From a virus: DNA of 29,355 bases. The notes below the pieces were generated by a model. It ran no database searches and was not told the DNA's origin. It was given only the letters and a program-made list of their open reading frames with translations. Each line of letters starts with the position of its first letter. The first letter of the stretch is position 1. Position numbers and translations under genes: made by a program. Positions 8,287 to 29,355 of this stretch are shown here, one piece after another. Location of the stretch: positions 1 through 29,355 of the IMG/VR virus record IMGVR_UViG_3300012936_000109. One strand, written 5' to 3'.

Positions 8287-8296
8287 CTATTATTTA

Positions 8297-9934: not shown

Positions 9935-9973
9935 AATAGTATATGTATTTTATAGTAAATATATAATTAATAA

Positions 9974-10894
9974 TTATTTTCCATTTTCAGCCTTTATTAT
10001 TCTCTCAGCCCATCTCATCATCACATCTCCACCCCATAGATTATAGCTGATAGTACCACAGTCATCATAGTTTCCAGTATCATAGGCTTTGGCTCTTTTT
10101 AGATAGCTGTAGACCCTTTTGACAGTATCAAAGCTGATAGGCTTTCTCTGTTTGATTTGCTGTGCTCTGACTTTCCCAGTTTGAGTTGCACATTTATTTC
10201 CTCTTTTCTCATTTTCTCTGATAGCTCTATCTGCATTATTACTAGCTGATTTTGGATAGTCATTGTATGAGGCTAAATCTAGGATGTCTGCTAGTGCATC
10301 TAGTATATCTACTGGCTTTAGTTTTTTAGGTTTGCTAGTTTTTTTAGACAGTTTGCTCATTTTATCTACAAAGTATCCCTCTATACTATATCCTTTGACT
10401 TCCTGTCTTTTTATCATATCCCATACAGCATCATTATCCACTTTCATAGAAACCATCCATGTCCCTTTAGGAATATTTTTATATCCATATAATCTAGCTT
10501 TATCCATAGCTGTATCCTGCACTATCCAGCTCTCTACTGTAGTAACACCAGCAATCCTCTCATCATGCTCATATGTAGCTGATTTTTGATTATTATGTAT
10601 GAGATACAGCTCAGATGCTCTCTTGACTGTCTTTTCAGAGAAATAGACATAGTACTCATCTCCAGTCTGCTCATCTACTCTATATATCTGTTTATTAGGT
10701 ATCAGAGCTGGACCTACTAATAGCCTCTTTTCCTCATCTACTTTTGCTAGTATTATATTTTGTTTTTTATGTTTGTTTAGTGCTACCCAGTTCTCCTCTA
10801 TAGCTGGAGAATTGACTAGGCTAATTGCATCTATTGCTAACTGAGCCTGGTCATCATCTATGACTAGCTCTACTATTCTGGTTACTTTTTTCAT
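9974..10894 (-). CDS. Prohead serine protease, XkdF-like, with a C-terminal extension domain
   Basis: The N-terminus AISLVNSPAIEENWVALNK...LLVGPALIPNK...YFSEKTV...YEHD resembles the PBSX XkdF (S78_2) family. Its position upstream of the scaffold and capsid genes fits. Confidence 0.55.
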   Translation of the reverse strand: MKKVTRIVELVIDDDQAQLAIDAISLVNSPAIEENWVALNKHKKQNIILAKVDEEKRLLVGPALIPNKQIYRVDEQTGDEYYVYFSEKTVKRASELYLIHNNQKSATYEHDERIAGVTTVESWIVQDTAMDKARLYGYKNIPKGTWMVSMKVDNDAVWDMIKRQEVKGYSIEGYFVDKMSKLSKKTSKPKKLKPVDILDALADILDLASYNDYPKSASNNADRAIRENEKRGNKCATQTGKVRAQQIKQRKPISFDTVKRVYSYLKRAKAYDTGNYDDCGTISYNLWGGDVMMRWAERIIKAENGK

Positions 10895-10905
10895 ATCTAT
10901 AATTT

Positions 10906-12657
10906 TTAAACACTGGCTTTTCGCCTAATTTTATTTAATCTACTCTGGCTATTTGTCATCTCATCAGTAAGAACAAATGCTTTGACTGGCTCTGGAGACA
11001 TCATGTCTAGAGCTCTACCCATATCTGGAGTAGTAGCTCCTCCTCTAGCAAAGCCTACACCTCCACCAGCCATATTTATATTTGATAATAGTGGTCTAAA
11101 TGCTCTAGCTGATTTAGCATTTATGACTACCTCCCCTCTACTTAGTCTAGCTGGTATACTATCACTAGTACCATTTCCATATCCTCTCACTACACCTCCT
11201 CTAGCTTTTGCCTCTGGTATAGGAGTTGATTGTATAGCCATCATAGATTTCATACCAGCTGCTAGTGCTAGTCCAGCATTTATAGGAGCTAGTACTGGAC
11301 CTACTACTGGTATTCCGACTGTAGCATTATATGCTTGCTGAGCTCCTGTAATCATACCTATCATAGCCTCAGCTGTTTTTAGTGCTTTCCATGCTTTTGT
11401 CCCCTCTCCAGCCATCTGTGCTGCCTGTCCAAACGTACTACCTAGTGCATTTAGCTGGTCAGTTTCTAGCTGGAGCTCCATCTCTTTTTCAGCTTTTGCT
11501 AGTGCCTCTCTCTGTCTACTATATTTTTTCTTTATCTCATTTTTTAATACCTCTGCATTCTCTACATTCTCTACAGCTGCTAGCTCCTGTTCCTCTTGAA
11601 ATTGTAGCTGTAGATTTGCTCTCTCAAACTCATCCTCTATGACAGCTAGTGCATTTTCCTGTGTTAGCTGTCTGATTTTATCAGCATTAGATTTGACTTT
11701 ATTTTCTCTCTCTAATGCATCTGCCTCCTCCTGTTTCTTTTTCTCCTCAGCTCTCTTTCTTTCCTCCTCATCTTTAGCCTTTTTATCTGCCTCCTCTTTA
11801 TCTCTCTCTGCCTGTCTTTTATCTGCAAACTCTTTGTTTAATCCATTAAGAAAATTCTGTAAACTAATCTGTCTACCAGCTGCCTCTTGCTGTATATTTG
11901 CTAGCTCTATCTCTGCCTCTGCCAGAGCATCTAGGTCCTCTGCTTTATTTTCTCCAGTTTCCATCTCAGCTTTCATCAGCTCTACTCTCTCCTTTGCTAG
12001 TTTGATTCTCTCATCCTCCAGCTCTTTTTCTTTTGCAAATGCTGTCTCTGCAGCTTTTTTTCTGACATCATATGACTTAGTGATATCCTCTGCTATTAGT
12101 TTCTGCTGTTCTATAAATGCTACACTCTCAGCTGTCTTTACATTTAGGTCTCTCTGTGCATCAGTATTTTTCTGCATAGCATCTGTCAAATTTGCTATAG
12201 TTTTTGCATCCTCAATGACCTCTTTTTTGAATCCTTTTAGTGCTGCCTTTGCATCTTTTGTAGCTCCTTTGAAATCTCCACTCATTAACTTTACTATTGC
12301 TGAGCCTAATTTTCCTATTCTATCTACAATATTTTTCATGACAGAGCCTACTATATTTAGAGCCTTTTGTAATTGTTCTGCACCTTTTTTTGTTTGTGTA
12401 AAATATGCTACAAGTGAGCCTATAGCTACTACAAAGGCACCTATACCAGTGCTGAGTAGACCAGCTTTGATACTACCAAACATCACTTTGGCTGTAGTTT
12501 TTACTTTGAGCATGGCTTTATTTACAGCTCTCATAGATGCACCCCAGATAGTAGTATCTTTTTGTGCATCTTTTGTAGCTTTCCCTACTTTCTCTATATC
12601 TTTCCTAGCCTCTACAGCATCAGTAATCAGATTTAATATTATTTGTTCTGCCACCAT
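10906..12657 (-). CDS. Tape-measure-like protein (TM segment, long E/K coiled coil, conserved C-terminal motif)
   Basis: It has the hydrophobic GLLSTGIGAFVVAIGSLVAYF segment and a long charged coiled coil. The C-terminal GNGTSDSIPARLSRGEVVINA motif is common in tape-measure and internal virion proteins. Confidence 0.6.
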   Translation of the reverse strand: MVAEQIILNLITDAVEARKDIEKVGKATKDAQKDTTIWGASMRAVNKAMLKVKTTAKVMFGSIKAGLLSTGIGAFVVAIGSLVAYFTQTKKGAEQLQKALNIVGSVMKNIVDRIGKLGSAIVKLMSGDFKGATKDAKAALKGFKKEVIEDAKTIANLTDAMQKNTDAQRDLNVKTAESVAFIEQQKLIAEDITKSYDVRKKAAETAFAKEKELEDERIKLAKERVELMKAEMETGENKAEDLDALAEAEIELANIQQEAAGRQISLQNFLNGLNKEFADKRQAERDKEEADKKAKDEEERKRAEEKKKQEEADALERENKVKSNADKIRQLTQENALAVIEDEFERANLQLQFQEEQELAAVENVENAEVLKNEIKKKYSRQREALAKAEKEMELQLETDQLNALGSTFGQAAQMAGEGTKAWKALKTAEAMIGMITGAQQAYNATVGIPVVGPVLAPINAGLALAAGMKSMMAIQSTPIPEAKARGGVVRGYGNGTSDSIPARLSRGEVVINAKSARAFRPLLSNINMAGGGVGFARGGATTPDMGRALDMMSPEPVKAFVLTDEMTNSQSRLNKIRRKASV

Positions 12658-12821
12658 TTTTTATCTAGTTTATATTTACCATTTATATTCTCATCATCTA
12701 TACTATACATCAGTGGTAGAGCTGACTTTAAGCACTCTATACCGATTAGTATATTTTTTTTAATTATGTTTAGTATGTCTCTATCCATGTTTTTTGCCTG
12801 TTTTTATCGCATCTAACGTAT

Positions 12822-13706
12822 TTACTCACTACTTAAGCTAGTACTACTCCGAAACTCTGTAAAGTCCACTGTAGCTGTCCATTCTATAGCCTTTCCAGTT
12901 TCCCCTCTAACTGTAATTTTAAAATGTGTACCAGATGTAGCTGCTGTAGGTCTCCAGTTTGATACAGAGCCATGATTTGACATAGTTTTTCTAGTCCTTT
13001 TTATCTGCATAATACCAGCTCTATTTATGATTACACCTCTCTCTAACCAGCTACAAAAATCTCCAACACCTCCACCCTCAGCCTCACTAGATGTACATAC
13101 AGCTACTACAGATGCATTGAAATACATGATGCTATTAGTAGGTACTGGATAAAAGTTTGTACCATCATTATTTATATGACTATTGATAGTACCACCAGTT
13201 GTAGATGTCACTCCAAATAGCACTCTAGTATACTGTCTCTCTCCTAATATATCCTCCTCTAGACTACCTCCATGTACATAGTGATTAGCTATAGTAGCAT
13301 TTGCTCTAGTTCCCATGATAGTGCTATTCACACACCCTCTATTTACCTCTCCAAATGTACCATTGACAGCACAGTTAGTACTCTCATTTAGTGAGTTATT
13401 TTTACCATTTATATGTCTACCTATTAGGTCTATATCTACTGCATTTCTAAACCCTGTATCATTAGTAGTATTGATAGCTCTAGTACTCATATAGTCAAAT
13501 GTACCAGCACTCTTGCACAGACACTCATTAGTATCATCATTATATCTAAACCCATATGCTAGACACTCCTCCTTTGTAGGAGTAGTCTCTGTCAGCTCTA
13601 GCTGGTCTGGTCCCTCTGCAGCTTTTCTAGTATAGTGCTCAAATATAACTATACCATCCTCTTTGATTACTTTTGGTCTTTTTGTTTGGTCTATTTTAAA
13701 TCTCAT
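12822..13706 (-). CDS. Putative tail fibre/receptor-binding protein
   Basis: N/G/T-rich short repeats (NGKNNSLNESTNCAVNGTFGEVNRGCVNSTIMGTRANATI) suggest a beta-helical fibre-like fold. It sits in the tail module. Confidence 0.35.
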   Translation of the reverse strand: MRFKIDQTKRPKVIKEDGIVIFEHYTRKAAEGPDQLELTETTPTKEECLAYGFRYNDDTNECLCKSAGTFDYMSTRAINTTNDTGFRNAVDIDLIGRHINGKNNSLNESTNCAVNGTFGEVNRGCVNSTIMGTRANATIANHYVHGGSLEEDILGERQYTRVLFGVTSTTGGTINSHINNDGTNFYPVPTNSIMYFNASVVAVCTSSEAEGGGVGDFCSWLERGVIINRAGIMQIKRTRKTMSNHGSVSNWRPTAATSGTHFKITVRGETGKAIEWTATVDFTEFRSSTSLSSE

Positions 13707-13707
13707 A

Positions 13708-15951
13708 TTACAGATTTTTGATAGTGATAAACTCTACTTTAGCTGAGTTGATTCCATTATATTCTATTTTTTTTACTCTATATTTTACTCCAGATATAGT
13801 CACTACATCATTAAATCTAAATCTCTCTATCTCATTTCCAGATAGCTGTAGATTCATCCTCACTAGTCTAGTATTTTTGTGATATAACTCATCTATATAT
13901 GCACTCCAGTACTGATTAAATAGTCCTAATAGTACAGCTCCAGCTCCAGGATAGTACTCTACTACTCCATAATCTACACTGAGTACACCAGCTCCAGCTG
14001 CTGGAAATGTATTAGCTGGAGAGAATAGTAGATAGTCATAGTAATAATCATGTGTGCTACCTGCATATGGAGCACTAGTACCATATCCTATAGTAGATGT
14101 TTGTACTCCATTATCATACAGTATCCTCATCACATTTGACCATCCTAGCTCTCCTGCCTCATTCATGATTTGTGGAGCATATAGGTCTGTACCAAAATGA
14201 TATAGGCACTCTGTACTAGCTATATCTTTTGTCTCTACTAGGTCCTCTTGCTCATCATATAGGTCATCTCCACTCTCAAATTTATATGGATATTTCCACT
14301 CATTAGGTTTGTTGTATAGTCTAGTAATAACATCATCACTATCCTCACTATGTCTAAATGTGATATCCTTTGCTAGTCCCTCTATTGGTAGTATTTGTAT
14401 CTCACTAGTATCTACTTTTTTTGTCCAGTCATGCTGAGCTCCACTATCCACCCAGTCATCATATGGCTCTATCTGTATGATAGTTGGGTCATCCTCATCT
14501 GGTAATAGTACTAGATTAAACATAGTAATTAAATTTTTACAGAATTCCCACTGTGATATCTCTCCTCTAGGTCCACTCAGAACATCAGTAAGCTGCACTT
14601 GGCTTCTAGTCATGTCATACGTTATGAAACCATAGGCATGTGGGTCTCCAGATGCATTTTCATCAGCTAATTCTACACCATATGTAGTACCAGCATTTAG
14701 ATTTTCTACCATATACTCTACATACAGTCTATCTCCCTCATCTACCTCTATTATCTGTGTAAATGGATTTGTGGACCAGCTCCTCTGTGAATAGTTATTA
14801 TACTGTGCATTAGATAGATTATTTATAGTTCTAGTTTGCATCTGTGCAGCAACAGTAGTAGTACCAGCACTGTTATCAAAGTGCATCACTCTACAAGTCA
14901 TAGATATTGTATCACTACTATTTACAGCCATAGTCCCTCTACACCATAGGTTTAGCATTACATATACTGTAGTAGCACCAAACCCAACTGGTACCTGTAT
15001 CTCATCAGATGTAGCATTGTAGTATGTAGGCATAGGAAATGCACTACTAGAGCCATATATAGTAGATGTAAATGCTGGTAGTTTCTCATATGATGTAGCT
15101 GTACCAGCTGTATGATTTTTTAGATTAGGCTGTATTGGGTCTCTCCTCTGCTCTCTACCACTACCCATTAGTCCATTTACTGCTGCAAAATCTGCATATA
15201 ATTTTTTCCATGCATCTGTAGTCAAAAATGTAGACTGTATAGAGTATCCAGCATTTTTGATTATAGTCCTAAATAGGTAGTCTACCTGTATCCAGGGTCT
15301 ATGTACATACTGGTGTTGCATTGTCATAGTAGATGTTGGTATACTAGGTACATCTATATATGATACTCCAGTAGTTGCATTAGTCTCAAATACTACATCT
15401 GGGCTATATCTAACCCATGGATATTTTACTGTATTACCATCTCTAAAACCATTAGCATGTGGTGCATTAGAATATGTTAGACCAGTAGTCCAGCTAGCCT
15501 GTATATTAGTCTCATCATAGTCATGTTTGAGCTCTGCTAAATCTAGGTCTCTCAGTATAGCCTCTGATAGTGTATCTTTAATATTTACTATGTCAGAGAA
15601 TATAGTGATTTCATATGCTATCTGTTTATTAGATTTGACAGTAACTCCATTGAGCTGTAGCCATCCCTCAAATATAACATGAGTATTTTTACTGACCTCA
15701 CATCTAGTCCTCTTATGTGGGTCAAAATCTCCATCAACTTTTACATTATACATATATGTAAAAAAGATATTATTTGACTGTGTACCTGGCACCTCAAATG
15801 ATTTAGAGTATGAGCTAGTCCTCTCTGCAATATTAGTATAGTCATCAGCATTAAATACCATAGGTATTGGCTCATCCTGGTATAAATGTATCTGGACCAT
15901 GTGCCCTGGAAAAGATGCATTGTTTGATGAAACTGCTCTTAGTGTAATCAT
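13708..15951 (-). CDS. Large tail/baseplate structural protein (747 aa)
   Basis: Called from size and position in the tail module. I recognise no catalytic motif. Confidence 0.4.
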   Translation of the reverse strand: MITLRAVSSNNASFPGHMVQIHLYQDEPIPMVFNADDYTNIAERTSSYSKSFEVPGTQSNNIFFTYMYNVKVDGDFDPHKRTRCEVSKNTHVIFEGWLQLNGVTVKSNKQIAYEITIFSDIVNIKDTLSEAILRDLDLAELKHDYDETNIQASWTTGLTYSNAPHANGFRDGNTVKYPWVRYSPDVVFETNATTGVSYIDVPSIPTSTMTMQHQYVHRPWIQVDYLFRTIIKNAGYSIQSTFLTTDAWKKLYADFAAVNGLMGSGREQRRDPIQPNLKNHTAGTATSYEKLPAFTSTIYGSSSAFPMPTYYNATSDEIQVPVGFGATTVYVMLNLWCRGTMAVNSSDTISMTCRVMHFDNSAGTTTVAAQMQTRTINNLSNAQYNNYSQRSWSTNPFTQIIEVDEGDRLYVEYMVENLNAGTTYGVELADENASGDPHAYGFITYDMTRSQVQLTDVLSGPRGEISQWEFCKNLITMFNLVLLPDEDDPTIIQIEPYDDWVDSGAQHDWTKKVDTSEIQILPIEGLAKDITFRHSEDSDDVITRLYNKPNEWKYPYKFESGDDLYDEQEDLVETKDIASTECLYHFGTDLYAPQIMNEAGELGWSNVMRILYDNGVQTSTIGYGTSAPYAGSTHDYYYDYLLFSPANTFPAAGAGVLSVDYGVVEYYPGAGAVLLGLFNQYWSAYIDELYHKNTRLVRMNLQLSGNEIERFRFNDVVTISGVKYRVKKIEYNGINSAKVEFITIKNL

Positions 15952-17406
15952 TTACTGTATATTTAGTGATGATAATTGATTCTGTTGTACATTTACATAT
16001 CCATCTACCTCCAGCTCTATTTCATACTGTGCTACTTTATCGTTTGCTCTAGTATACCTCTCATATCTATTTGTAGATAGCGTTACACCTCTAGTATAGT
16101 CAAACTCTGTACCAGGTCCATCAGCTCCAGTATCTGCATTATTATAACTACCTAATATATACACTGTAGGAGATGTAAATAGCTCCTCTAACCAGACAGA
16201 TGTAGCATCATCAACCCAGTCTGTATTGACTGTGATAGTCTCTTTAGCTGATACATTGATAGTGTTATTTGACCTATGTGTTGGTAGTACCTGCATCCAC
16301 AGTACCTGTGAGCCTCTAGCCTGCTCTGTATTTTCTCTCTTTATATCTAGCTCTCTATATGATTTTTTAGTAAAATTATAATAGTCCCATGTACCATGTC
16401 TATTTACCCAGCATAGTCTTATACTCTCATATCCTTTACAGTCATCCTCCATACGTTTAAATGTGTACTGTAGTGACTTATATCCACTACCATTATGTAG
16501 ACCTATAGTATACTCTGTAGCATTATTTGTAATCCACTGTATATTAAATGTAGCATTGTTTATCAGATTAGCTGGTCCACAACCAAAGTACTGTAGCATT
16601 TTGTATGAGCTAGTCATAGTACTATCTGTAGAGCCATCATACATACTATCTGTCATATCTATAGTCTGACCGTTTATCTCTATTCTCATCCTATCCCATG
16701 TAGCATTTACACCATTTTGTAATCCAGATAATGTGCCTACAGTCATATAATCTCCATCTCTGACATACTGTGTAGTTGGTGCATTTGATAGAAAATGTGC
16801 TGAGGGTTGATTAGGAAAAAATGGACCTCCATATAGTGGTAGAAATGTTTGGAGCTCTACACCTCCTGTAAACGTACCAGTACCTCCATAGGCATGTGAG
16901 TTCCTTTGTGCATTATTAGGCACTGTACCATTCCAGCAAGCCATCTCATTATGTCTGATTAAATCTGGATATATCACAGCTGGGTCTGTAGCTGTAGGTG
17001 CATACATCTCTCCAAATCTGACATCAAATCTAACCATATTATAATTATTTAGTGACCACTGGTCTATCAAATGGATAGGTATAGTATCATAGTGATTGAA
17101 TGTCCATGTCTGACTATGACCTTTAAATTTAGGCTCAAACCCAGACTGTCCAGTACTACCTAGATTGTCTGTCTGTACATGCTGTTCTAGTATGTCTCTG
17201 ATATTTACATTACCATATCCAAATATTGCTGGAGAGATTTTTAGTCTAGCATCTATGACATTAGATGCTGAAAAATTGTATATATGCACATCTACTATAT
17301 ATTTAAATTTAGGTAGTGCTACGTTTGTGCTAGTCACTACAAAATTCCAGTCCTGTCCAGCTGGTCCCACTTTATTTAGTGGTGTTTTCATTATCGTTAT
17401 TGCCAT
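15952..17406 (-). CDS. Tail/baseplate structural protein (484 aa)
   Basis: Called from size and position. It abuts the 747-aa gene with no intergenic base. Confidence 0.4.
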   Translation of the reverse strand: MAITIMKTPLNKVGPAGQDWNFVVTSTNVALPKFKYIVDVHIYNFSASNVIDARLKISPAIFGYGNVNIRDILEQHVQTDNLGSTGQSGFEPKFKGHSQTWTFNHYDTIPIHLIDQWSLNNYNMVRFDVRFGEMYAPTATDPAVIYPDLIRHNEMACWNGTVPNNAQRNSHAYGGTGTFTGGVELQTFLPLYGGPFFPNQPSAHFLSNAPTTQYVRDGDYMTVGTLSGLQNGVNATWDRMRIEINGQTIDMTDSMYDGSTDSTMTSSYKMLQYFGCGPANLINNATFNIQWITNNATEYTIGLHNGSGYKSLQYTFKRMEDDCKGYESIRLCWVNRHGTWDYYNFTKKSYRELDIKRENTEQARGSQVLWMQVLPTHRSNNTINVSAKETITVNTDWVDDATSVWLEELFTSPTVYILGSYNNADTGADGPGTEFDYTRGVTLSTNRYERYTRANDKVAQYEIELEVDGYVNVQQNQLSSLNIQ

Positions 17407-17417
17407 ATCATATATAT

Positions 17418-17942
17418 TTATAATGTACTAGTAGTAGCTCTCAAAAACTTTGCAACGTCAGAGGCATACATAGATATGACCTCCTGTGGTAGTCTTTTAT
17501 AGTGCATATTAAATGCATCTCTAAAAAAGAATCTTGGCTTGATACCTTTCTCCTTTATTTTTCTGCCTATGAGATATGCTGCACTACTAATATTTCTATC
17601 ATTTTTTTCTATAAATTTCCCACTAGATAGGTCTCTCAATCTCAGTGGCTTTATCTTTATCCAGTTTTTTAGCACACTAGGAGGTGGCTGTTTAGCACCT
17701 TTTCTCCTACCATACTCTACATATTTCCAGTGCTCAGCTGCTCCAAACTGGAGCTCTACAGCTCCACTAGGATATACTTTTAGATAGTATCCTAGGCTCT
17801 TTGACAGTGTTTTATTCTTAGTATTAGCTGGTCCTTTTCTACCATCTTTCCTCTTTGCTAGATTACTCTTGGCTCTAGCTACTACTTTTTGAGCAAATCT
17901 GTCTAGTGCTTTCTCTGTTTGTTTTAGCTGTAGCTTTTTCAT
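17418..17942 (-). CDS. HK97 gp10-like head-tail joining / tail completion protein
   Basis: TLSKSLGYYL...HWKYVEYGRRKG...IKPRFFFRDAF matches the gp10-family pattern (Y..YVE.G ... PF..DA). Confidence 0.55.
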   Translation of the reverse strand: MKKLQLKQTEKALDRFAQKVVARAKSNLAKRKDGRKGPANTKNKTLSKSLGYYLKVYPSGAVELQFGAAEHWKYVEYGRRKGAKQPPPSVLKNWIKIKPLRLRDLSSGKFIEKNDRNISSAAYLIGRKIKEKGIKPRFFFRDAFNMHYKRLPQEVISMYASDVAKFLRATTSTL

Positions 17943-18416
17943 CTATGCACTAGCTATATATATCTCACATCTCACATCAGCTGCCTCTACTGGTCTAATC
18001 ATAATTTTAGATAGGTCTATCATAGTACCAAAACTAGGTACAGCATCTAGCTCACAAAATGATATTTGCTCTGCTGCAAATAGTACATGAGTACTTTCTG
18101 GACCTACTGTTATATGAAAGTTTTGATTGACTGCCTCCTCTCCTTCTCCAGATATTAGCACATATGCTACCTCTACTGTATTTGTAGTATCTAGATTAGT
18201 CACTCTGACATATCTAGCATCTCCTACATCTAGAGCTGTCTGTGTAGTTGCCTCTGTTGCTGCAAATACTACAGCTGTAGTAGTCTGTCCATTTTGACAA
18301 TTAATAATTCTTTTGTAGTAGTCATTTATACCACTAATAGTCTTACTCCTAGTACATCCCACCTCAGTGCTGTATAGGTTTAAACTCTCTGTAATTGTTA
18401 CTGTTAAATCTGCCAT
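17943..18416 (-). CDS. Hypothetical structural-module protein (157 aa)
   Basis: ORF track entry, preceded by a 120-nt AT-rich non-coding region. Confidence 0.7.
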   Translation of the reverse strand: MADLTVTITESLNLYSTEVGCTRSKTISGINDYYKRIINCQNGQTTTAVVFAATEATTQTALDVGDARYVRVTNLDTTNTVEVAYVLISGEGEEAVNQNFHITVGPESTHVLFAAEQISFCELDAVPSFGTMIDLSKIMIRPVEAADVRCEIYIASA

Positions 18417-18536
18417 ATTTTTAATTTTAAGTATATCATTATTGTATAGTATCTATTTCCTTTTTTTTGTTTTACATTTTTATATCATCATATCTAGCAT
18501 CTAGTTTTACATAGTATGCTCATTTTGTCTTACTTA

Positions 18537-19151
18537 CTAGCTCTCTCCCATAAACTCATCATGTGACAGCTGAGGTCCACTTAGTGTCCTTTTGCTAGAG
18601 CTGGTCACTGTACCATCATTATTTATACTGAGTTCATTCTGCTCATATCCATCCCAGTGACAAACACTGTAATCAAAGAAGTTTGTTATGCTAAACTGCA
18701 TATTCCAGCCAGCTACATTGTCTGTAAATTTCTCTGTAAATGGCTCTAGTGTAAATGTAGTAGATATCTCATTTGTATATTCATAGTAGCTATTAGTATT
18801 AGCATAGTGATTACCACTAGTACCAAATATAGTCCCCTGCATTCTGCCTCCTCTTTTAAACCATGCTATAATATCTAGTAGGATTGTGCATGTCTGAGAC
18901 TGTACTCTCTTTTCCATATCTCCCTCTCCAGGCTCTACTAGGTCCATACATATGATGTTAAAATTATACTGTACTTGTTTATCCAGTGCATTTACACTAG
19001 TAGGTACTACTACTATATGTGGATATACTACATTTCCAGCTGTGGATATTTCCCAGGGGTCTCCATAGTAGACCTCATGTACAAAGTGATGGTCTCTACA
19101 TACTCCTACTATCATATCTACTACCTGGTCAAAAGTTCTAGGTTGGCTCAT
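18537..19151 (-). CDS. Hypothetical structural-module protein (204 aa)
   Basis: ORF track entry. Its ATG lies 5 nt after the stop of the -1 frame extension of the upstream gene. Confidence 0.7.
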   Translation of the reverse strand: MSQPRTFDQVVDMIVGVCRDHHFVHEVYYGDPWEISTAGNVVYPHIVVVPTSVNALDKQVQYNFNIICMDLVEPGEGDMEKRVQSQTCTILLDIIAWFKRGGRMQGTIFGTSGNHYANTNSYYEYTNEISTTFTLEPFTEKFTDNVAGWNMQFSITNFFDYSVCHWDGYEQNELSINNDGTVTSSSKRTLSGPQLSHDEFMGES

Positions 19152-19156
19152 ATTTT

Positions 19157-19974
19157 TTAGTTTCCGTTATATTTTTCTATTCTCTCTTTCTCCTTTTCTA
19201 CCTCACTGTTTACTGACAGCCAGTTAAATATCTCATTGACTGGTCTCTTTGTGATACTATTTAATTTTAGCACATCTCCACCAGCTAGCTGATACATGAC
19301 TATAAACCAGCCATATTTCTCAGCTAATGTGTTTCTGCTTTCCTCCTCTTCTTTTTCTGCTCCATAGAGCTCCTCTTCTTTTTCATCTCCAAAGATGATT
19401 TGATAGTGTCTATGTGTTTGTCTACGATAGTGTAAAAAAAAACCATAGCACCATATACAGTATCTATGCTCAGACTATCCTCAAATATCTTAGCTCTATC
19501 CTCTCTATCATCTATAGTATACTCCTCTATCCTATATCTATTTCCACTCCTTTTTATGACTGGTCTATATAGCACTGTTAGTATGTCTATCAGATTTGCA
19601 TATCCATTTTGTATCCATGTATCCATATCTGCAAACTCTCCAAATGTCAGCTCATTCATATTAGGCACAAAACCATACTCTATACCATCTATCTCTATCA
19701 CATTTCTTAGCTCTTTATTAGGCATATCAGCTGTCAGTGCAGCTAGTGTATCATTTACTCTGTCTATCTGTTTTATAGATATTTTAGATAGATATGATAG
19801 TGGACATTTAGTGAGTATAGATATAGACCTAATCTTTACCTCCAGCTCACTCAGCTCTTTATTCTCAGTTATAGACATCAGCTGTTGATACTGTTTGACA
19901 GACACCTCATCCCACTTCTGAGGCACATGGTAGCTGTGTTTCTTTGGTCCTATTTGTATTTCTAGTCTAGTCAT
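19157..19974 (-). CDS. Predicted -1 frameshift fusion product of the chaperone-like gene (about 271 aa)
   Basis: From the U UUU UUU site (19434-19442), the -1 frame stays open for 92 codons (LHYRRQTHRHYQIIFGDEKEEELYGAEKEEEESRNTLAEKYGWFIVMYQLAGGDVLKLNSITKRPVNEIFNWLSVNSEVEKEKERIEKYNGN*) to TAA 19159-19157. This fills the 172-nt apparent gap. Confidence 0.5.
19324..19974 (-). CDS. Tail assembly chaperone-like protein, zero-frame product (216 aa)
   Basis: The pattern (...LTFGEFADMDTW...ILTVLYRP...EEY...RAKIFEDSL...GAMVFF) resembles TAC families. A U9 slippery run lies near the 3' end with an open -1 frame beyond it. Confidence 0.5.
   Translation of the reverse strand: MTRLEIQIGPKKHSYHVPQKWDEVSVKQYQQLMSITENKELSELEVKIRSISILTKCPLSYLSKISIKQIDRVNDTLAALTADMPNKELRNVIEIDGIEYGFVPNMNELTFGEFADMDTWIQNGYANLIDILTVLYRPVIKRSGNRYRIEEYTIDDREDRAKIFEDSLSIDTVYGAMVFFYTIVDKHIDTIKSSLEMKKKRSSMEQKKKRRKAETH
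19434..19442 (-). promoter_or_regulatory. Slippery sequence (U9; heptamer U UUU UUU in the zero frame)
   Basis: The plus strand carries a9. The mRNA reads AUG GUU UUU UUU UAC in the frame of the 216-aa ORF. Confidence 0.5.
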
Positions 19975-20058
19975 TTATTATAAGTATAAATTTTGATTAT
20001 ATCGTTTTAATGTTATATTTGCACTGTTTTTCATGATAGCTAAAATAGGGGTGTTGGT

Positions 20059-20196
20059 CTAATTGTCGTAATAATTAGCATCCCTATTTTTTGTCTCTCC
20101 ATATCTAGTGTTTCTACGTTCTATTATTTTTAGTATAAATATACCAGCCAGCCATATAAATGCAACATAGCTCATAAAAATAGCTAACAGAGGCAT
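20059..20196 (-). CDS. Small membrane protein (45 aa), absent from the ORF track
   Basis: Base-by-base translation: MPLLAIFMSYVAFIWLAGIFILKIIERRNTRYGETKNRDANYYDN*. It has an N-terminal TM helix, and its ATG lies 5 nt after the terL stop. Confidence 0.4.
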   Translation of the reverse strand: MPLLAIFMSYVAFIWLAGIFILKIIERRNTRYGETKNRDANYYDN

Positions 20197-20200
20197 GCTG

Positions 20201-21514
20201 CTAATATACATAATACCTGCCTGTATTAGGGTTTATTTCATAGTACATCCTCATCATCATAGTATCAGAATAGTCTGGAGACCTGCCTATTAAATCTTTG
20301 ATTTTGTCCTTTGCTAGTATGCTCAGTTTACTATCTTTGTCTATATTTATTCTTCTGACCTGCTCCAGCTCCTGTATCAGTTGCTCCTTAAATTTTATGT
20401 CATTTGTACTCACACCTATCTGTCCTTTATTTATCATATCAGCTAGTTTATAGTAGCACTGGGTCTTTAGATTTTGATAGTTTTCTTTGAGTAGAGGTTT
20501 ACTGTTATTTTGAAACCCTAGACATCTCAATATATCTTTGCATCCACCTCCTACACCATCCTCATCCACTATGATATTAGTCAGTGGTACAGCCTCTCTA
20601 TTCTGTATCTCTTTTATCCTATCAGCTACCTCTACCATACTACTACTATCCATGATGACTATATGTGATACCTGTAGACCATTCCAGTACATGATACAGG
20701 TCTTATCCTTTCCATATCTAGCTATATCAGCTGTGATATATTTATCTCCAGTAGGCACTACAGCACTAAACATATTGATGATACTATCATAGTTTATTAG
20801 CTGGTCTTGACTATCATCATATTCCCAGTCCCCCCTCAATAGTCTAGCTTTTGATATCTCATCTAGATTACCTAGCTGCTCTCTATAGTGTTTACTGATA
20901 TGCTGATTATCATCTACTAGTGCCTGTATAAATCTCCTGTGTTTAGGTAGAGCTCCCTCTCTATCTGGCTTATAGTACATCTGATATATCCATCCCTTTG
21001 TAGGGTTGCATGTCATCAGTAGTTTAGGTATTAGTCCATACTCATCAAGTCTATATCTGAGCCTACTAGATACTATCTGCTTTGCCTTTTCTGTCAGCTG
21101 AGATACCTCATCTATAAATGCAAATGTGAGCTCCAGAGAGCCTAGTGAATCATAGTTTGGGTCTGATGGATATAGAAATAAATCTTTGAGTATTATCTCA
21201 CTATCATTGTAAAATTTAATGATATTGCTCTGTCCATTATATGTGTAGTGTATACCAGATTTTAGTGACCACTGATTACAGATATCAAAAAAAGTATTGA
21301 GAGTAGTTTTTTTTAGAGTATCTAGTTTGCTCCTACCTATCATCCCTCTGATACCAGCATACTGTAGACATAGTATGATACTATATGCACATCCTAGATA
21401 GCTCTTTCCTCCACCAGCTGCACCTCCATAGAGCACCTCTGTTGTACTTTTATCCAGTAGATACCTCATAGCTATCTTCTGCTTTGTGATGAGCTGTGGA
21501 GATATATCTATCAC
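20201..21514 (-). CDS. terL: Terminase large subunit
   Basis: Walker A GGAAGGGKSY, Walker B-like TFAFIDEVSQ, and a C-terminal nuclease-like region. It overlaps TerS by 4 nt. Confidence 0.9.
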   Translation of the reverse strand: MIDISPQLITKQKIAMRYLLDKSTTEVLYGGAAGGGKSYLGCAYSIILCLQYAGIRGMIGRSKLDTLKKTTLNTFFDICNQWSLKSGIHYTYNGQSNIIKFYNDSEIILKDLFLYPSDPNYDSLGSLELTFAFIDEVSQLTEKAKQIVSSRLRYRLDEYGLIPKLLMTCNPTKGWIYQMYYKPDREGALPKHRRFIQALVDDNQHISKHYREQLGNLDEISKARLLRGDWEYDDSQDQLINYDSIINMFSAVVPTGDKYITADIARYGKDKTCIMYWNGLQVSHIVIMDSSSMVEVADRIKEIQNREAVPLTNIIVDEDGVGGGCKDILRCLGFQNNSKPLLKENYQNLKTQCYYKLADMINKGQIGVSTNDIKFKEQLIQELEQVRRINIDKDSKLSILAKDKIKDLIGRSPDYSDTMMMRMYYEINPNTGRYYVY

Positions 21515-21858
21515 TCAGTATGGTCTAGATTGATATTGATTTTTATAGGCTCTCCAGCTGAGGTATGGTCCATCTCTTGCCTCTCTACAAACCCTCTCCT
21601 TTTTCCCTTTGTTTTTAGATAGAATATAGTAGCTGATGTATTGCCATCCTTTATCTGTTTGAATAGCTCACTCTCTGCAAAATCTAGAGCTATGTCTGAT
21701 ACATCCTGTACATCTCTACTAAATGTCTCATCATTTTTTAGCCAATTATAAAATTGAGTTCTACCTACACCAGCTATCTTGCATGCTGTAGTGACTACTC
21801 CTAGAGATTTTACCAGAGCCTCTAATACTCTCTTTTTACTGTGTTCAGTTTTGTTCAT
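21511..21858 (-). CDS. terS: Terminase small subunit (HTH type)
   Basis: ALVKSLGVVTTACKIAGVGRTQFYNWLKND...FAESELFKQI...ATIFYLKTKGKRRGF is typical of HTH small terminases. It lies immediately upstream of terL. Confidence 0.75.
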   Translation of the reverse strand: MNKTEHSKKRVLEALVKSLGVVTTACKIAGVGRTQFYNWLKNDETFSRDVQDVSDIALDFAESELFKQIKDGNTSATIFYLKTKGKRRGFVERQEMDHTSAGEPIKININLDHTE

Positions 21859-22135
21859 AGTCTGTATCTATTATGTCTAAAAATTTATTATGTTTTTCTA
21901 GGTTACAGCTGCTCAGCTCTATATATGTTTTTTGCTCCTCTGGAAATGTATGTATAGCAAAGTGACTTTCTGCCAATAGCCATATAGCTGTATATCCCTC
22001 TGGCTCAAATTTATGCTGCATAAAATCTAGTACATTAAACTGTGCTCTTTTAAGTGCATTACAAAAATAGAACATCAGTAGCTCTGGGTCTGTCTCTGGT
22101 ATCCATTGACTATGTTTAAATATCTCAGCTTTCAT
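21845..22135 (-). CDS. speD: S-adenosylmethionine decarboxylase (pyruvoyl, class 1/SpeD-like) homologue, shortened (96 aa)
   Basis: FEPEGYTAIWLLAESHFAIHTFPEE...ELSSC matches the self-processing LxESHxxIHTxPE core. Ser57, His62 and Cys77 are spaced +5 and +20 as I recall for the Ser/His/Cys active site of small prokaryotic AdoMetDCs. Confidence 0.65.
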   Translation of the reverse strand: MKAEIFKHSQWIPETDPELLMFYFCNALKRAQFNVLDFMQHKFEPEGYTAIWLLAESHFAIHTFPEEQKTYIELSSCNLEKHNKFLDIIDTDYEQN

Positions 22136-23417
22136 CCTGTATTTCTGTAGTTAAATCTTTGTAATTCTTTTTGATTTTTTTGACATCCCCTTTGTAAAAC
22201 ACTAGTACATTCTGATGACATTTTCCTACCTTTCTATTCCTCATAGTCCTAGCTGCTCTCATAGCCAGTGTACCTATCATCTCTACTAGTATCATCTCAT
22301 TATATAGTCTCATACCAGCTCTATCAAATATATCCTTTATATGGTCTACAAATCTATAGTAGTATCCCTCTTTGTCTCTGATATCTCCTACTACTATCAC
22401 AGCAAATCTATCATCTTTTAGGCACTGTATAGCATCTGTAAAAGCTGTATCTAGTATAGTCATAAAGTCCTCATATGTCTCTTGATTACTAGCATCATTC
22501 TCCATATCACTATATACCTCTAAATCATAGTATGGTGGACAGCTAAATAGTAGGTCCTGTGTATCCTCTGCTATATGCTGTAGTACACTCCTACCATCAT
22601 CATTGATATACTCAGCTGTCATACTAGCTACTCTCTCATTATTTATATTAGCCTGCTCTGCTCTCAGCTCTATCCCAGTAAATGTATGTCCTAGACTAGC
22701 TGATACATACCCAAATACACTATCTCCAGCAAAACAATCAAACACTTTAGATGGTCCAGGAGTAAACCATTTGCATACTATCTCAGATAGTACAGGGTCT
22801 AGTATGGATACCTCTGGAGCTGCTTTTAGATTACCTTTCCATGTACCATACTGTAGCTCATTTAGCTCATTCATAGCTGTCTCTCTAGTCTCTCCTTTGT
22901 CTAGTATGAGATTTTTCCAATGTTTTTTTCTCTCTTGCCAGTATCCCTGTCTAGTATCTAGTATAGTAAATGGAGGTACACCAAATGTCTCAGCTAGCTC
23001 TATTCCCTCTGGCTGTTCTCCTACAGATATATCATCATCTGTGAAACCTACTAGCTCTCCCTGTGTAAACCCCCAATCTATGAGCTCCTTTTCATCAAAA
23101 TAATTAGCTAGAGCATCCATATCAAATGCTCCAGTATTTTTGTTTAGTCTGACATTTAACTCCTTTTCTTTGTTTAGGTCTAGACTGAGCTCCACTGTAG
23201 GCACCTCATCTATTCCCATACTCTCTGCTACTTTACATCTCTGATGTCCTCCTATGATGATATTTAGCCTGTCTGGATGAGTATTAACTATAATAGGGTC
23301 TACTATACCAAAACGATTGATTGAGGCTCTAATGTCCTCAAATTGCTCTGTACTGAGCTGTCTAGGATTGTACTCAGCTGGTATCAGCTCTGAGATTTTT
23401 CTATTAACTATTTTCAT
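22125..23417 (-). CDS. ParB-like nuclease domain fused to a SAM-dependent amino DNA methyltransferase
   Basis: The N-terminus has the ParB-N pattern (IVDPIIVN...IIGGHQRCKVAESMG). The C-terminal half has motif I-like VFDCFAGDSVFG followed by motif IV CPPY (FSCPPYYDL). Confidence 0.75.
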   Translation of the reverse strand: MKIVNRKISELIPAEYNPRQLSTEQFEDIRASINRFGIVDPIIVNTHPDRLNIIIGGHQRCKVAESMGIDEVPTVELSLDLNKEKELNVRLNKNTGAFDMDALANYFDEKELIDWGFTQGELVGFTDDDISVGEQPEGIELAETFGVPPFTILDTRQGYWQERKKHWKNLILDKGETRETAMNELNELQYGTWKGNLKAAPEVSILDPVLSEIVCKWFTPGPSKVFDCFAGDSVFGYVSASLGHTFTGIELRAEQANINNERVASMTAEYINDDGRSVLQHIAEDTQDLLFSCPPYYDLEVYSDMENDASNQETYEDFMTILDTAFTDAIQCLKDDRFAVIVVGDIRDKEGYYYRFVDHIKDIFDRAGMRLYNEMILVEMIGTLAMRAARTMRNRKVGKCHQNVLVFYKGDVKKIKKNYKDLTTEIQDES

Positions 23418-23625: not shown

Positions 23626-23860
23626 ACCATTTACCTCTAGGACATCTCTCAGATTTCCAGCTAGCTTTGGTCCTAATATGACATCCACATACATTACAGT
23701 GTTCCCATGGCTCCTCAGTACCATCCATATGCTCACACTGCATACACTCATGTAGTCTCATCTCATATTCTATACCCTCTAGCTTTCTCATTCTGTCATA
23801 TATATGTTTAGCTATTGCCCATAAAAATTTAAACAAATATTTGATGTTAATTTTTTTCAT
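23615..23860 (-). CDS. Cys-rich zinc-ribbon-like small protein (81 aa)
   Basis: HECMQCEH...HCNVCGCHIRTK...ERCPRGKW contains CxxC ... CxxCxC ... C metal-binding-like spacing. Confidence 0.6.
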   Translation of the reverse strand: MKKINIKYLFKFLWAIAKHIYDRMRKLEGIEYEMRLHECMQCEHMDGTEEPWEHCNVCGCHIRTKASWKSERCPRGKWYER

Positions 23861-24404
23861 TGATTCTGGTTTTAATATATTCTTTTACTCTTTTTATAGT
23901 GTTGAATATACTAGTCCTAGATATACCAGTCATACCAGCCAGTCCATGTAGTGTATTGCCCTGGTAGTAGTATAGTTTAAATAGCTCTTTGTCATACCAG
24001 TATAGCTCATCTACTATCTGGTCTATCTTTTCTAGATATTTATATGTGGATGTTCCACTATACATCATGTAGTCTGGAGTACTAGATACACTAGCATTTG
24101 CATCTATATACTCATAGTACTTTTTGTATTTATAGTAGTATCTACTATTTCTGCTATTAAGCATCAGATTTAGAGCTCTGATACAGTACCACAGTAGACC
24201 ACCTCCATCATATATTTTATCTAGTTTAGATTTTTCCATCTCAAAGAGCCATACAAATAACTCCTGTAGAGCATCATCTCCATCTCTACTATTTCCAGCT
24301 ATATTATGTGCCACCTCTCTTAGCCTCTCAATGCTGGAGAGGATAGCATCATGTGCATCTGTCTCCTTTTCAGAAAGGCAAGTCATCTGCCTTTGACTGC
24401 ACAT
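23847..24404 (-). CDS. Sigma-70 family (ECF-like) factor-like transcription regulator
   Basis: A region-2-like segment (DDALQELFVWLFE...LWYCIRALNLMLN) precedes a C-terminal region-4-type HTH (LHGLAGMTGISRTSIFNTIKRVKEYI). Confidence 0.5.
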   Translation of the reverse strand: MCSQRQMTCLSEKETDAHDAILSSIERLREVAHNIAGNSRDGDDALQELFVWLFEMEKSKLDKIYDGGGLLWYCIRALNLMLNSRNSRYYYKYKKYYEYIDANASVSSTPDYMMYSGTSTYKYLEKIDQIVDELYWYDKELFKLYYYQGNTLHGLAGMTGISRTSIFNTIKRVKEYIKTRINEKN

Positions 24405-29078: not shown

Positions 29079-29355
29079 TTCTCATTTCACTTCTCATCCT
29101 CCTCCTATATCTCTCTAGTCTGATGATATCTGTCATGGCTTTTCTGACCTCATTAGCACAGTCAGCATATGCAGCACCTACACTACTATCTACATCTTTA
29201 GTAGACAGTGCATGAGCTATATTCTCCATGATACTAGCTCTGAGATTTAGCTCATTATATACATTCTCTGCATCAAAAGTAGATAGACCCTCTAGTCTGA
29301 ATTGTTTCTCTATTTTCTCAGTAGTTTTTTTGTCTTTAGCTTTTAGTAGCTCTAC
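29062..29355 (-). CDS. Hypothetical protein, 3' part of the junction-spanning ORF (29233..29355 duplicates 1..123)
   Basis: Manual translation continues ...IMENIAHALSTKDVDSSVGAAYADCANEVRKAMTDIIRLERYRRRMRSEMRNERIY and stops at TAG 29064-29062. It overlaps the next gene's start by 17 nt. Confidence 0.7.
   Translation of the reverse strand, partial: VELLKAKDKKTTEKIEKQFRLEGLSTFDAENVYNELNLRASIMENIAHALSTKDVDSSVGAAYADCANEVRKAMTDIIRLERYRRRMRSEMRNERIY
29233..29355. repeat. Terminal direct repeat, copy 2 (identical to 1..123)
   Basis: Same 123-nt string as the window start. Confidence 0.95.

What the first reader, a model, noticed from the sequence alone, without database searches (positions are those of the whole stretch)
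19157..19974. Candidate programmed -1 ribosomal frameshift at a U9 run in a tail-assembly-chaperone-like gene
The 216-aa ORF reads ...AUG GUU UUU UUU UAC..., giving the slippery heptamer U UUU UUU at 19434-19442. Its -1 frame is open from that point for 92 codons and ends at TAA 19159-19157, 5 nt before the next gene's ATG. The 172-nt apparent intergenic gap (19152-19323) is therefore exactly filled by the -1 extension, and the extension looks protein-like (...AEKYGWFIVMYQLAGGDVLKLNSITKRPVNEIFNWL...). This mirrors the conserved G/GT two-product chaperone arrangement of long-tailed phages. Here, however, the gene follows terL and is separated from the tape-measure-like gene by seven genes. A homopolymer length error, or a separate 46-aa gene starting at ATG 19297, are alternatives.
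Basis: partly seen in the sequence, partly recalled or inferred. Interest (0 to 1): 0.7.

Follow-up and report, generated by a model that had tools for sequence, protein, structure and literature searches.

The report
Conserved T9 frameshift in phage gene
A phage gene just after the large terminase gene makes a second, longer protein only if one base is slipped at a run of nine T's. That exact run is conserved in more than 200 distantly related phage sequences, so it is a real programmed recoding site in an uncharacterised protein family.

Summary
On the minus strand, ORF 19974..19324 (216 aa) contains a T9 run at 19442..19434. The -1 frame is open from there to TAA 19159..19157, 5 nt before the next ATG.

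The arrangement is strongly conserved. Of 250 related loci, 230 have the C-terminal domain in the -1 frame, always behind a run of T9 (203) or T10 (27) and never a shorter one. Protein identity is only about 20-60%. The run sits in all three codon phases. The loci include the cultured siphovirus Nonlabens phage P12024L and a Maribacter prophage. A few lineages encode the same long protein as one ORF, either without the run or with T10. The fused 272-aa product folds confidently (pLDDT 87, pTM 0.83), with a helix running through the junction. Sequencing error and a separate downstream gene are excluded.

The mechanism is not settled. The strict requirement for at least 9 T's, including at synonymous positions, and the lack of any conserved stimulatory RNA structure favour RNA-polymerase slippage that inserts one U. 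The exclusive -1 direction favours ribosomal -1 frameshifting.

Tail-assembly-chaperone identity is not established. The gene is not next to the tape-measure gene, and similarity to tail or chaperone families is weak.

I rate it a new variant of a known kind, with high interest.

The parts
19324..19974 (-). 0-frame ORF for the short product (216 aa): an N-terminal two-lobed domain followed by a 36-aa basic helical tail encoded after the run
   Evidence: There are 42 homologues of 213-217 aa. AF2 model of the short form has pLDDT 83.1. The 0 frame stays open longer than synonymous-codon simulations predict.
19434..19442 (-). T9 run (U9 in the mRNA, A9 on the + strand), which is the shift site. 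The in-phase U UUU UUU heptamer is 19441..19435.
   Evidence: It is the only run of 9 or more in the window. T9 or T10 is conserved in 230 of 230 frameshifted relatives, in all three codon phases.
19157..19435 (-). -1-frame extension of 92 codons plus TAA: helix continuation L-H-Y-R..., an acidic disordered linker, and a conserved three-helix C-terminal domain (KYGW...LAGGD...TKRPVNE..NWL)
   Evidence: It aligns end to end with the single-ORF homologue P0043 and with run-free in-frame clades. 93 C-domain ORFs were found. AF2 gives pLDDT 85-93 for residues 220-270.
19157..19974 (-). Whole coding region of the long (272-aa) trans-frame product
   Evidence: AF2 with an alignment: mean pLDDT 87.4, pTM 0.83, with helix 170-190 crossing the junction at residues 180/181.
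19324..19433 (-). Dual-coding overlap, where the 0-frame tail of the short form and the -1-frame start of the extension share the same nucleotides
   Evidence: The 0 frame is open for a median 114 nt after the run across clusters, against 17 nt in synonymous simulations.
19422..19424 (-). TAG in the third (+1) frame, three codons after the run. mRNAs with U8 or U11 would give 183- or 184-aa truncated products.
   Evidence: Most relatives have TAG two to three codons after the run (...TTTAG).
18537..19151 (-). Next gene, g204 (phrog_30964 family, function unknown). Its start lies 5 nt after the long-form stop and 172 nt after the short-form stop.
   Evidence: A homologue lies immediately downstream in 159 of 209 loci. 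The long-form stop overlaps or abuts its ATG in 80% of clusters, most often by 4 nt (ATGA).
20201..21514 (-). Large terminase gene immediately upstream (conserved synteny terS-terL-X)
   Evidence: Pfam and PHROG hits. terL lies a median 45 nt upstream of X in relatives.

Best explanation
Gene X (19974..19157, minus strand) is a two-product gene expressed by programmed recoding at a conserved T9 run.

Standard decoding gives a 216-aa short form: the N-domain plus a basic helical tail. Reading that continues one base back, in the -1 frame, gives a 272-aa long form. The long form has the same N-domain, whose last helix continues across the junction, followed by an acidic linker and a conserved three-helix C-domain. 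I put the probability that this recoding is real and selected at about 0.93.

For the route, I favour host RNA-polymerase slippage on the A9 template, inserting one extra U (U9 to U10) in a fraction of transcripts that are then translated normally. Ribosomal -1 slippage on U UUU UUU may contribute as well. This step is inferred, not shown. The confidence value of 0.5 given here refers to this specific route.

The long-form ORF ends at or overlaps the start of the next conserved gene, g204. Slipped messages may therefore also couple g204 translation to long-form synthesis (inferred).

The protein's role is unknown. Its fixed place in the terL-X-neck/tail module, and weak similarity to tail-protein and chaperone families, suggest a virion-assembly factor that works as a short:long pair, in the manner of gpG/gpGT (speculative).
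For: **Recoding is real**
- Of 242 related loci in which both the N and C parts could be scored (250 held), 203 have T9 and 27 have T10 with the C-domain in the -1 frame. None has a shorter run and none needs the +1 direction.
- This holds across 60 clusters at under 60% identity and 37 at under 50%.
- It holds in cultured Nonlabens phage P12024L, a Maribacter prophage and MAG-binned contigs labelled with gut/anaerobe taxa.
- The long form exists as one ORF in run-free clades (L031 type, L168 type, P0171, P0284 and others). It also exists in T10 variants nested among T9 relatives.
- There is no usable start codon for the C-domain.
- The AF2 model of the fusion has pTM 0.83.
- The long-form stop is packed against the next gene.

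**Polymerase slippage is favoured**
- The run is never shorter than 9, matching the 9-bp RNA:DNA hybrid and the published threshold for programmed slippage, 'Tn, n>8' (PMC3711429; PMC5009743).
- The run length is kept although its codon phase differs (phase 1 in 40 clusters, phase 2 in 18, phase 0 in 2).
- In phase-2 clusters the first T is the wobble base of a variable codon (18 of 18, P about 2e-7). The ninth T is a Phe wobble base (18 of 18, P about 0.0025). A single heptamer does not need both.
- No conserved RNA structure lies downstream or upstream (mean z about 0), and there is no Rfam hit.
- Other runs of 9 or more are absent or depleted in these genomes.
- The phage has no RNA polymerase of its own in the 29-kb genome, only a sigma-like gene. 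Host multisubunit RNA polymerase therefore transcribes the gene.
Against: - All 230 frameshifted loci need the same direction (-1). Antonov et al. 2013 (PMC3711429) use conserved direction as a signature of ribosomal frameshifting. Families that use transcriptional slippage usually contain both directions.
- Every phase of the run still contains an in-phase U UUU UUN heptamer, so ribosomal slippage is always possible.
- In the majority phase (phase 1), the first and ninth T can be explained by coding needs: Val/Ile/Leu second position, and Leu/Phe second position in the -1 frame.
- No RNA or protein data were available.
- Slippage rates of Bacteroidota RNA polymerase on T9 are unknown.
Confidence: 0.5

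Rival explanations
1. Classical programmed -1 ribosomal frameshifting. Ribosomes translating unaltered U9 mRNA slip back one base on the in-phase U UUU UUU (or U UUU UUG/A) heptamer at low efficiency without a stimulator, as in P2 E/E' (T TTT TTG) or lambda G/GT. This would give a high short:long ratio.
For: - An in-phase X XXY YYZ heptamer is present in every phase.
- The direction is -1 in 230 of 230 loci, which is the ribosomal-frameshift signature of PMC3711429.
- P2 E/E' shifts on a T-run heptamer at an ...GFF/GFL... position.
- The 0-frame tail seems selected, as expected if the short form is the abundant functional species.
- In phase-2 T9 clusters the base after the run is always G, giving a P2-like T TTT TTG.
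Against: - A heptamer would suffice, yet no relative has T7 or T8. Both ends of the run are conserved at synonymous positions.
- There is no conserved downstream hairpin or pseudoknot, and no upstream signal.
- Several lineages make only the long form. A rate of a few percent therefore seems low for what looks like the essential species.
- Any T9 transcribed by a bacterial RNA polymerase is expected to give slipped transcripts anyway (PMC5009743).
Confidence: 0.37
2. DNA-level contingency locus (phase variation). The T run changes between T9 (short form only) and T10 (long form) by replication slippage. Phage populations would be mixtures, with the long form made only by T10 genomes.
For: - In-frame T10 variants occur inside T9 clades (L001, L171, L115; L251-L254).
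- Phage contingency loci at homopolymers were recently reported (PMC12633550).
Against: - Consensus assemblies are T9/-1 in about 99% of run-bearing loci (230 against 3). The C-domain would be silent in almost all genomes, yet it is under strong purifying selection (invariant W, conserved motifs).
- Run-free lineages express the long form constitutively.
- Some T10 contigs come from very low-coverage assemblies (for example a contig labelled 2.23x), so part of the T10 signal may be error.
Confidence: 0.04
3. Artefact or mis-annotation. Either the true run is T10 (or T8) and the gene is one ordinary ORF, or the C-terminal part is an independent small gene (for example from ATG 19297).
For: - Homopolymers are error-prone in some sequencing chemistries.
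- Gene callers do annotate the C part as small separate ORFs (P12024L gp41; 93 small ORFs).
Against: - 230 assemblies from many projects and assemblers agree on the out-of-frame run. T10 is recovered when present.
- The 0 frame stays open about 38 codons past the run, more than expected.
- 41 of 60 clusters have no start codon in the -1 frame before the end of the run. 14 of 60 have no ATG in the -1 frame downstream of the run, and conserved residues precede the first ATG.
Confidence: 0.01

Closest known systems
Tail assembly chaperone pairs made by -1 frameshifting (lambda gpG/gpGT; P2 gpE/gpE+E', which slips on T TTT TTG)
   Same: - A phage morphogenesis-module gene gives a short product and a C-terminally extended trans-frame product sharing the N-terminus.
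- The shift site is a T-rich slippery run at an ...FF... position.
- The long ORF abuts the next gene.
- There is weak sequence and fold similarity (Phage_TAC_7, phrog_166, two predicted chaperone structures).
- No canonical G/GT pair lies next to this phage's tape-measure-like gene.
   Different: - The gene is not between the tail tube and tape-measure genes. It sits directly after terL and six to seven genes upstream of the tape-measure-like gene, and this position is conserved.
- The N part is about 180 aa and two-lobed, against roughly 90-140 aa.
- The 0 frame continues about 38 codons past the shift site.
- The site is a strict run of at least 9 T's rather than a heptamer.
- Some lineages make only the long form.
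- Profile comparison with P2 E+E' is not significant.
Programmed transcriptional slippage at 9-nt A/T runs in bacteria (Thermus thermophilus dnaX; Shigella mxiE and spa13)
   Same: - It has a homopolymer of 9 A/T, which is the length of the RNA:DNA hybrid.
- No extra signal is needed.
- Inserting one base gives a C-terminally extended product.
[quoted passage not shown]
   Different: - This is a dsDNA phage structural-module gene. The review's table of polymerase slippage in viruses lists only RNA viruses.
- The direction is uniform across hundreds of orthologues.
- No transcript data exist for this family.
Phage contingency loci (homopolymer tracts that mutate by DNA-polymerase slippage; Gomez et al. 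2025 preprint)
   Same: A homopolymer inside a phage gene whose length change toggles the reading frame. T10 variants do occur.
   Different: Here one out-of-frame length dominates in essentially all populations, and the 'off-frame' domain is strongly conserved. That indicates expression by recoding rather than by rare mutants.

Membership tests
Tail assembly chaperone G/GT (Xu, Hendrix & Duda type) | Two overlapping ORFs joined by a conserved programmed frameshift, giving short and long products with a common N-terminus | tested here: met
   a -1 extension behind a conserved slippery run in 230 loci.
Tail assembly chaperone G/GT (Xu, Hendrix & Duda type) | Gene pair located between the major tail (tube) gene and the tape-measure gene | tested here: not met
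   X lies directly after terL. The tape-measure-like gene (10906..12657) is six to seven genes downstream. The synteny terS-terL-X-g204-g157-g174 is conserved.
Tail assembly chaperone G/GT (Xu, Hendrix & Duda type) | Sequence or fold membership in a known chaperone family (Pfam Phage_TAC_*, solved or predicted chaperone structures) | tested here: inconclusive
   - The window protein has no Pfam hit.
- Phage_TAC_7 is matched by 4 of 32 members, best E 0.0048, below the level of a confident hit.
- phrog_166 'tail protein' is matched by 7 of 32 members, best E 6.8e-6, on residues 11-88.
- Foldseek finds nothing in PDB.
- Two predicted chaperone structures match at E 0.03-0.05.
- hhalign against P2 E+E' gives probability 0.2%.
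Tail assembly chaperone G/GT (Xu, Hendrix & Duda type) | Binds the tape-measure protein, is absent from virions, and both forms are required in a set ratio | not testable with these tools
   Needs genetics and proteomics. Lineages that encode only the long form argue that the short form is not universally required.
Programmed -1 ribosomal frameshift site | X XXY YYZ heptamer in phase with the 0 frame | tested here: met
   U UUU UUU at 19441..19435. An in-phase U UUU UUN exists in all three phases of the run.
Programmed -1 ribosomal frameshift site | Stimulatory element (downstream hairpin or pseudoknot, or upstream SD-like sequence). Common but not obligatory. | tested here: not met
   For 67 cluster representatives, the mean z-score of the 50 nt downstream is -0.06 and of the 50 nt upstream is -0.04. 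No Rfam match.
Programmed -1 ribosomal frameshift site | Shift direction conserved among orthologues | tested here: met
   230 loci need -1 and none needs +1. The criterion is from PMC3711429.
Programmed transcriptional slippage (realignment) site | A/T homopolymer at or above the slippage threshold (Tn, n>8), conserved as a run rather than as a phased heptamer | tested here: met
   T9 in 203 loci, T10 in 27, none shorter. All three phases occur. Synonymous positions at both ends are fixed. The threshold is from PMC3711429 and PMC5009743.
Programmed transcriptional slippage (realignment) site | Orthologues requiring different directions or run lengths (both +1 and -1 clusters) | tested here: not met
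   Only -1 is required. In-frame T10 variants exist (3 of 233 run-bearing loci) but none needs +1.
Programmed transcriptional slippage (realignment) site | Heterogeneous mRNA (U10 alongside U9) from a homogeneous DNA template | not testable with these tools
   No transcript or read-level data were available.

The most novel reading that the evidence does not exclude
This would be the first known case of programmed transcriptional slippage in a dsDNA phage. A strictly conserved T9 tract makes host RNA polymerase add one U in a set fraction of transcripts. That fixes the ratio of short to long forms of an uncharacterised assembly protein and couples translation of the next gene. The device is conserved across a family of at least 2,400 protein clusters at 50% identity, from marine, freshwater and MAG-binned contigs labelled with gut/anaerobe taxa. 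The only cultured or host-linked members infect Flavobacteriia.
Probability: 0.5. Interest if true: 0.8.

Novelty: new variant of a known kind. Interest (0 to 1): 0.72.

Why it matters
- **Annotation.** The gene is systematically mis-annotated. The C-domain is either dropped or called as a separate 46-130-aa ORF, as with gp40/gp41 in Nonlabens phage P12024L. The family is very large: 2,426 clusters at 50% identity. A whole conserved domain is therefore hidden in many environmental phage genomes.
- **Recoding.** The site is an unusually clean natural experiment. The same homopolymer length is kept across hundreds of lineages and three codon phases, alongside lineages that have dispensed with it. 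It offers a directly testable case for telling polymerase slippage from ribosomal slippage. It may extend programmed transcriptional slippage to dsDNA phages, in hosts whose translation initiation is thought to rely little on Shine-Dalgarno pairing (my background knowledge, not tested here).
- **Phage assembly.** A two-product gene with conserved recoding sits outside the canonical tail tube/tape-measure position. This suggests either a displaced tail chaperone or a second class of ratio-controlled assembly factor.

Tried and rejected
- **Near-identical DNA in GenBank phages:** no match.
- **Protein families for the window protein:** only phrog_32199, function unknown.
- **Profile search of PDB sequences and Foldseek against PDB:** nothing.
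- **hhalign against P2 E+E':** not significant.
- **Pfam on the C-domain alone:** nothing.
- **Locating the Phage_TAC_7 matches:** a second Pfam run picked members without the hit.
- **Downstream neighbour g204:** only an unknown PHROG, and no Pfam or PDB match. It did not help assign a function.
- **Structure prediction with conceptual translations from the loci:** It was redone with database proteins covering the N and C parts separately.
- **Rfam:** no frameshift element.
- **Promoter and terminator scan of the 'gap':** nothing on the coding strand.
- **First homopolymer script:** timed out and was replaced.
- **Rejected ideas:** sequencing error, an independent small gene, and a pure DNA phase-variation switch (see rivals).

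Full report
**1. The observation**

On the minus strand an ORF runs from ATG 19974 to TAG 19326..19324 (216 aa). It reads ...GCT ATG GTT TTT TTT TAC..., with exactly nine T's at 19442..19434. The in-phase heptamer U UUU UUU is 19441..19435.

From TTA 19435..19433 the -1 frame is open for 92 codons to TAA 19159..19157. That stop is 5 nt before the ATG (19151) of the next gene. The apparent 172-nt gap is therefore coding in the -1 frame.

The run is the only A/T homopolymer of 9 or more in the window. The window is a complete 29,232-bp genome with a 123-bp assembly overlap.

**2. Conservation**

A database search with the conceptual fusion found 42 homologues of 213-217 aa that cover only the 0-frame part. 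It also found one 264-aa single-ORF protein, P0043, that aligns with the fusion end to end, straight through the junction: GAMVFFLHYRRQ against GAMVFFLSFRNE, and AEKYGWF..LAGGDV..TKRPV against AERWNWY..LAGGDV..TNQPL. P0043's DNA has T10 where its clade-mates have T9 with identical flanks.

I fetched 250 related loci from viral, metagenome and genome collections. I located the N-part and C-part with tblastn and local HMMs. Eight loci were incomplete. The other 242 divide as follows:

| State | Loci |
|---|---|
| C-domain in -1 frame behind T9 | 203 |
| C-domain in -1 frame behind T10 | 27 |
| In frame with T10 | 3 |
| In frame with no run | 9 |
| Needs +1 direction | 0 |
| -1 frame behind a run shorter than 9 | 0 |

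- The 230 frameshifted loci form 99, 60 and 37 clusters at 80%, 60% and 50% protein identity.
- The run occurs in all three codon phases. Among the 60%-identity clusters, 40 are phase 1, 18 are phase 2 and 2 are phase 0.
- In 311 kb flanking 66 non-redundant loci there is no other T run of 9 or more on the gene strand.
- The same arrangement is present in the cultured siphovirus Nonlabens (Persicivirga) phage P12024L. There gp40, directly after terL, carries C-T9-ATCATTTAGG, and the -1 frame continues into the separately annotated gp41.
- It is also present in a prophage in a Maribacter isolate genome and in MAG-binned contigs labelled with gut/anaerobe taxa.
- An exhaustive phmmer search finds 2,426 clusters at 50% identity with E of 1e-3 or better. 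Most top hits stop matching at query residue 181-186.
- About 22 of the top 150 are full-length. Of those that keep the FF motif, 4 of 4 checked have T10. Others lack the run entirely, for example GAFMKYVEFR and GILNAYLQFRKE.

**3. Alternatives excluded**

*Sequencing error.* Hundreds of assemblies from different projects and assemblers agree on the out-of-frame length. T10 is recovered when present. The 0 frame also stays open much longer after the run than expected if it were never read: a median 114 nt against 17 nt in synonymous-codon simulations, with 25% of clusters at P<0.05.

*Separate gene.* The conserved -1 residues begin immediately after the run (L-x-[FY]-R). The invariant Trp of the WGW motif lies about 35 codons downstream.
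- In 41 of 60 clusters no ATG, GTG or TTG exists in the -1 frame before the end of the run.
- The first ATG usually comes after the WGW motif.
- In 14 of 60 clusters there is no ATG in the -1 frame downstream of the run.
- The window's ATG 19297 lies after KYGW.

**4. The products**

AlphaFold2 on the 272-aa fusion used an alignment of database N-part and C-part proteins. It gives mean pLDDT 87.4 and pTM 0.83. The model has:
- a two-lobed N-domain, each lobe a beta-hairpin followed by helices;
- a helix at 170-190 that runs through the junction at residues 180/181;
- a disordered acidic linker at 200-215;
- a three-helix C-domain at 217-271.

The short form gives the same N-domain (pLDDT 83.1). 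Its 0-frame tail is modelled as a continuation of the same helix at lower confidence, pLDDT 58-67. The tail has a median length of 38 aa and is mostly net positive. mRNAs with U8 or U11 would give products truncated three codons after the run.

Lineages that encode only the long form show that the long form is the conserved functional species. The extended 0 frame suggests that the short form is also used.

**5. Mechanism**

Two routes give the identical protein.

*For RNA-polymerase slippage (one extra U):*
- The run is never shorter than 9. That matches the 9-bp hybrid and published thresholds: efficient slippage at runs of 9 A/T, Thermus dnaX, Shigella mxiE and spa13, and 'Tn, n>8' (PMC5009743 and PMC3711429).
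- The run length is kept in all three phases.
- In the 18 phase-2 clusters the first T is the wobble base of a variable codon: GCT, ACT, GGT, TCT, AGT, AAT or GAT. It is T in 18 of 18 (P about 2e-7 from background usage).
- In the same clusters the ninth T is a Phe wobble base in the -1 frame, also T in 18 of 18 (P about 0.0025). One heptamer does not require both.
- There is no conserved RNA structure downstream or upstream and no Rfam match.
- The phage carries no RNA polymerase gene, only a sigma-like gene.

*For ribosomal -1 frameshifting:*
- An in-phase U UUU UUN heptamer is always present.
- The direction is -1 in 230 of 230 loci, which Antonov et al. treat as the ribosomal signature.
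- P2 E/E' shifts on a comparable T TTT TTG.
- In the commonest phase the outer T's can be explained by coding.

My estimates are 0.5 for mainly transcriptional, 0.37 for mainly ribosomal, and the remainder for the other explanations. A pure DNA phase-variation switch (compare PMC12633550) is unlikely. The out-of-frame length dominates 230 to 3 among run-bearing loci, while the C-domain is strongly conserved.

**6. Context and function**

The order terS-terL-X-g204-g157-g174 is conserved. The g174 protein resembles tail-completion/Neck1 proteins. A g204 homologue lies immediately downstream in 159 of 209 loci, and terL lies a median 45 nt upstream.

The long-form stop overlaps or abuts the g204 start in 80% of clusters, most often by 4 nt. 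The short-form stop lies a median 133 nt upstream. Translational coupling of g204 to the shifted frame is therefore plausible, but it is inferred. g204 itself has no assignable function.

Evidence that X is a tail assembly chaperone is weak:
- Phage_TAC_7 is matched by 4 of 32 members, best E 0.0048.
- phrog_166 'tail protein' is matched by 7 of 32 members, on residues 11-88.
- Two predicted chaperone structures match at E 0.03-0.05, far below dozens of uncharacterised phage proteins.
- Nothing matches in PDB.
- hhalign against P2 E+E' is not significant.

The positional criterion fails, because X is six to seven genes upstream of the tape-measure-like gene 10906..12657. However, no canonical G/GT pair lies next to that gene; only a 49-aa ORF does. 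A displaced chaperone is therefore not excluded.

**7. Comparison and novelty**

Functionally this works like the gpG/gpGT or gpE/gpE+E' two-product genes. It may also work like bacterial programmed slippage genes. It is not demonstrably a member of any known chaperone family.

I found no description of this site in the searchable literature. The 2016 review's table of polymerase slippage in viruses lists only RNA viruses.

I rate it a new variant of a known kind: a real, very widely conserved recoding site in an uncharacterised phage protein family, with an unresolved and experimentally tractable mechanism.

Noticed in passing
window 1-123 and 29233-29355: There is an exact 123-bp repeat at the two ends, so the window is a complete, circularly assembled (or terminally redundant) phage genome of 29,232 bp. 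GC content is 36%, and the listed genes of 100 aa or more are on the minus strand.
   Followed up: partly
window 3607-21858 (minus strand): The order of the late module is unusual. It runs terS, terL, X, neck-like genes, tail genes, tape-measure-like gene (10906-12657), prohead protease (9974-10894), major capsid-like gene (8297-9223), and the portal (3607-5802) only at the far end.
   Followed up: partly
window 12639-12788 (A8 run at 12754-12761, minus strand): A 49-aa ORF containing an A8 run overlaps the start of the tape-measure-like gene. No canonical G/GT chaperone pair is present there. I did not test whether this small ORF or its A8 run has any recoding role.
   Followed up: no
window 21845-23417: A ParB-like domain fused to a DNA methyltransferase (430 aa) is followed by a small S-adenosylmethionine decarboxylase-like gene. 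Both lie directly upstream of terS.
   Followed up: no
window 23847-24404: A 185-aa protein has weak sigma-factor-like hits. No phage RNA polymerase gene was seen, which suggests late genes are transcribed by host RNA polymerase redirected by a phage sigma factor.
   Followed up: no
window-wide, and 66 non-redundant loci (311 kb): On the coding strand, A runs stop at 8 in the window (7 of A8, none of A9). The chance that a run extends falls after 7 for both A and T in the relatives. This is consistent with general avoidance of slippage-prone runs everywhere except the X site.
   Followed up: partly
L080 2501-3282, and proteins P0046-P0059: In one clade the 0-frame tail after the run is 60-90 aa long, Trp-rich and conserved between members. 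It overlaps about 200 nt of the -1-frame C-domain. This is extensive dual coding, which suggests a distinct function for the short form there.
   Followed up: no
L031, L104, L105, L111, L112, L174, L175; L168, L212; proteins P0171, P0236, P0268, P0284, P0285, P0290: Several independent lineages encode the long form as a plain single ORF with no T run (for example GAFMKYVEFR). The recoding device has therefore been lost or never gained in parts of the family.
   Followed up: partly
L136/L142 (Ga0208793_1000087, 58.9 kb) and L155/L158 (FUFK010041244.1, 74.4 kb): Two copies of the gene lie about 28-30 kb apart on single contigs. These are probably concatemer-like assemblies of roughly 30-kb genomes.
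   Followed up: no
L163 9516-9683 (Nonlabens phage P12024L gp41): The GenBank annotation splits the gene into gp40 (175 aa) and a separate 55-aa gp41. Conceptual recoding gives a 231-aa protein, and the record lacks any frameshift annotation.
   Followed up: yes
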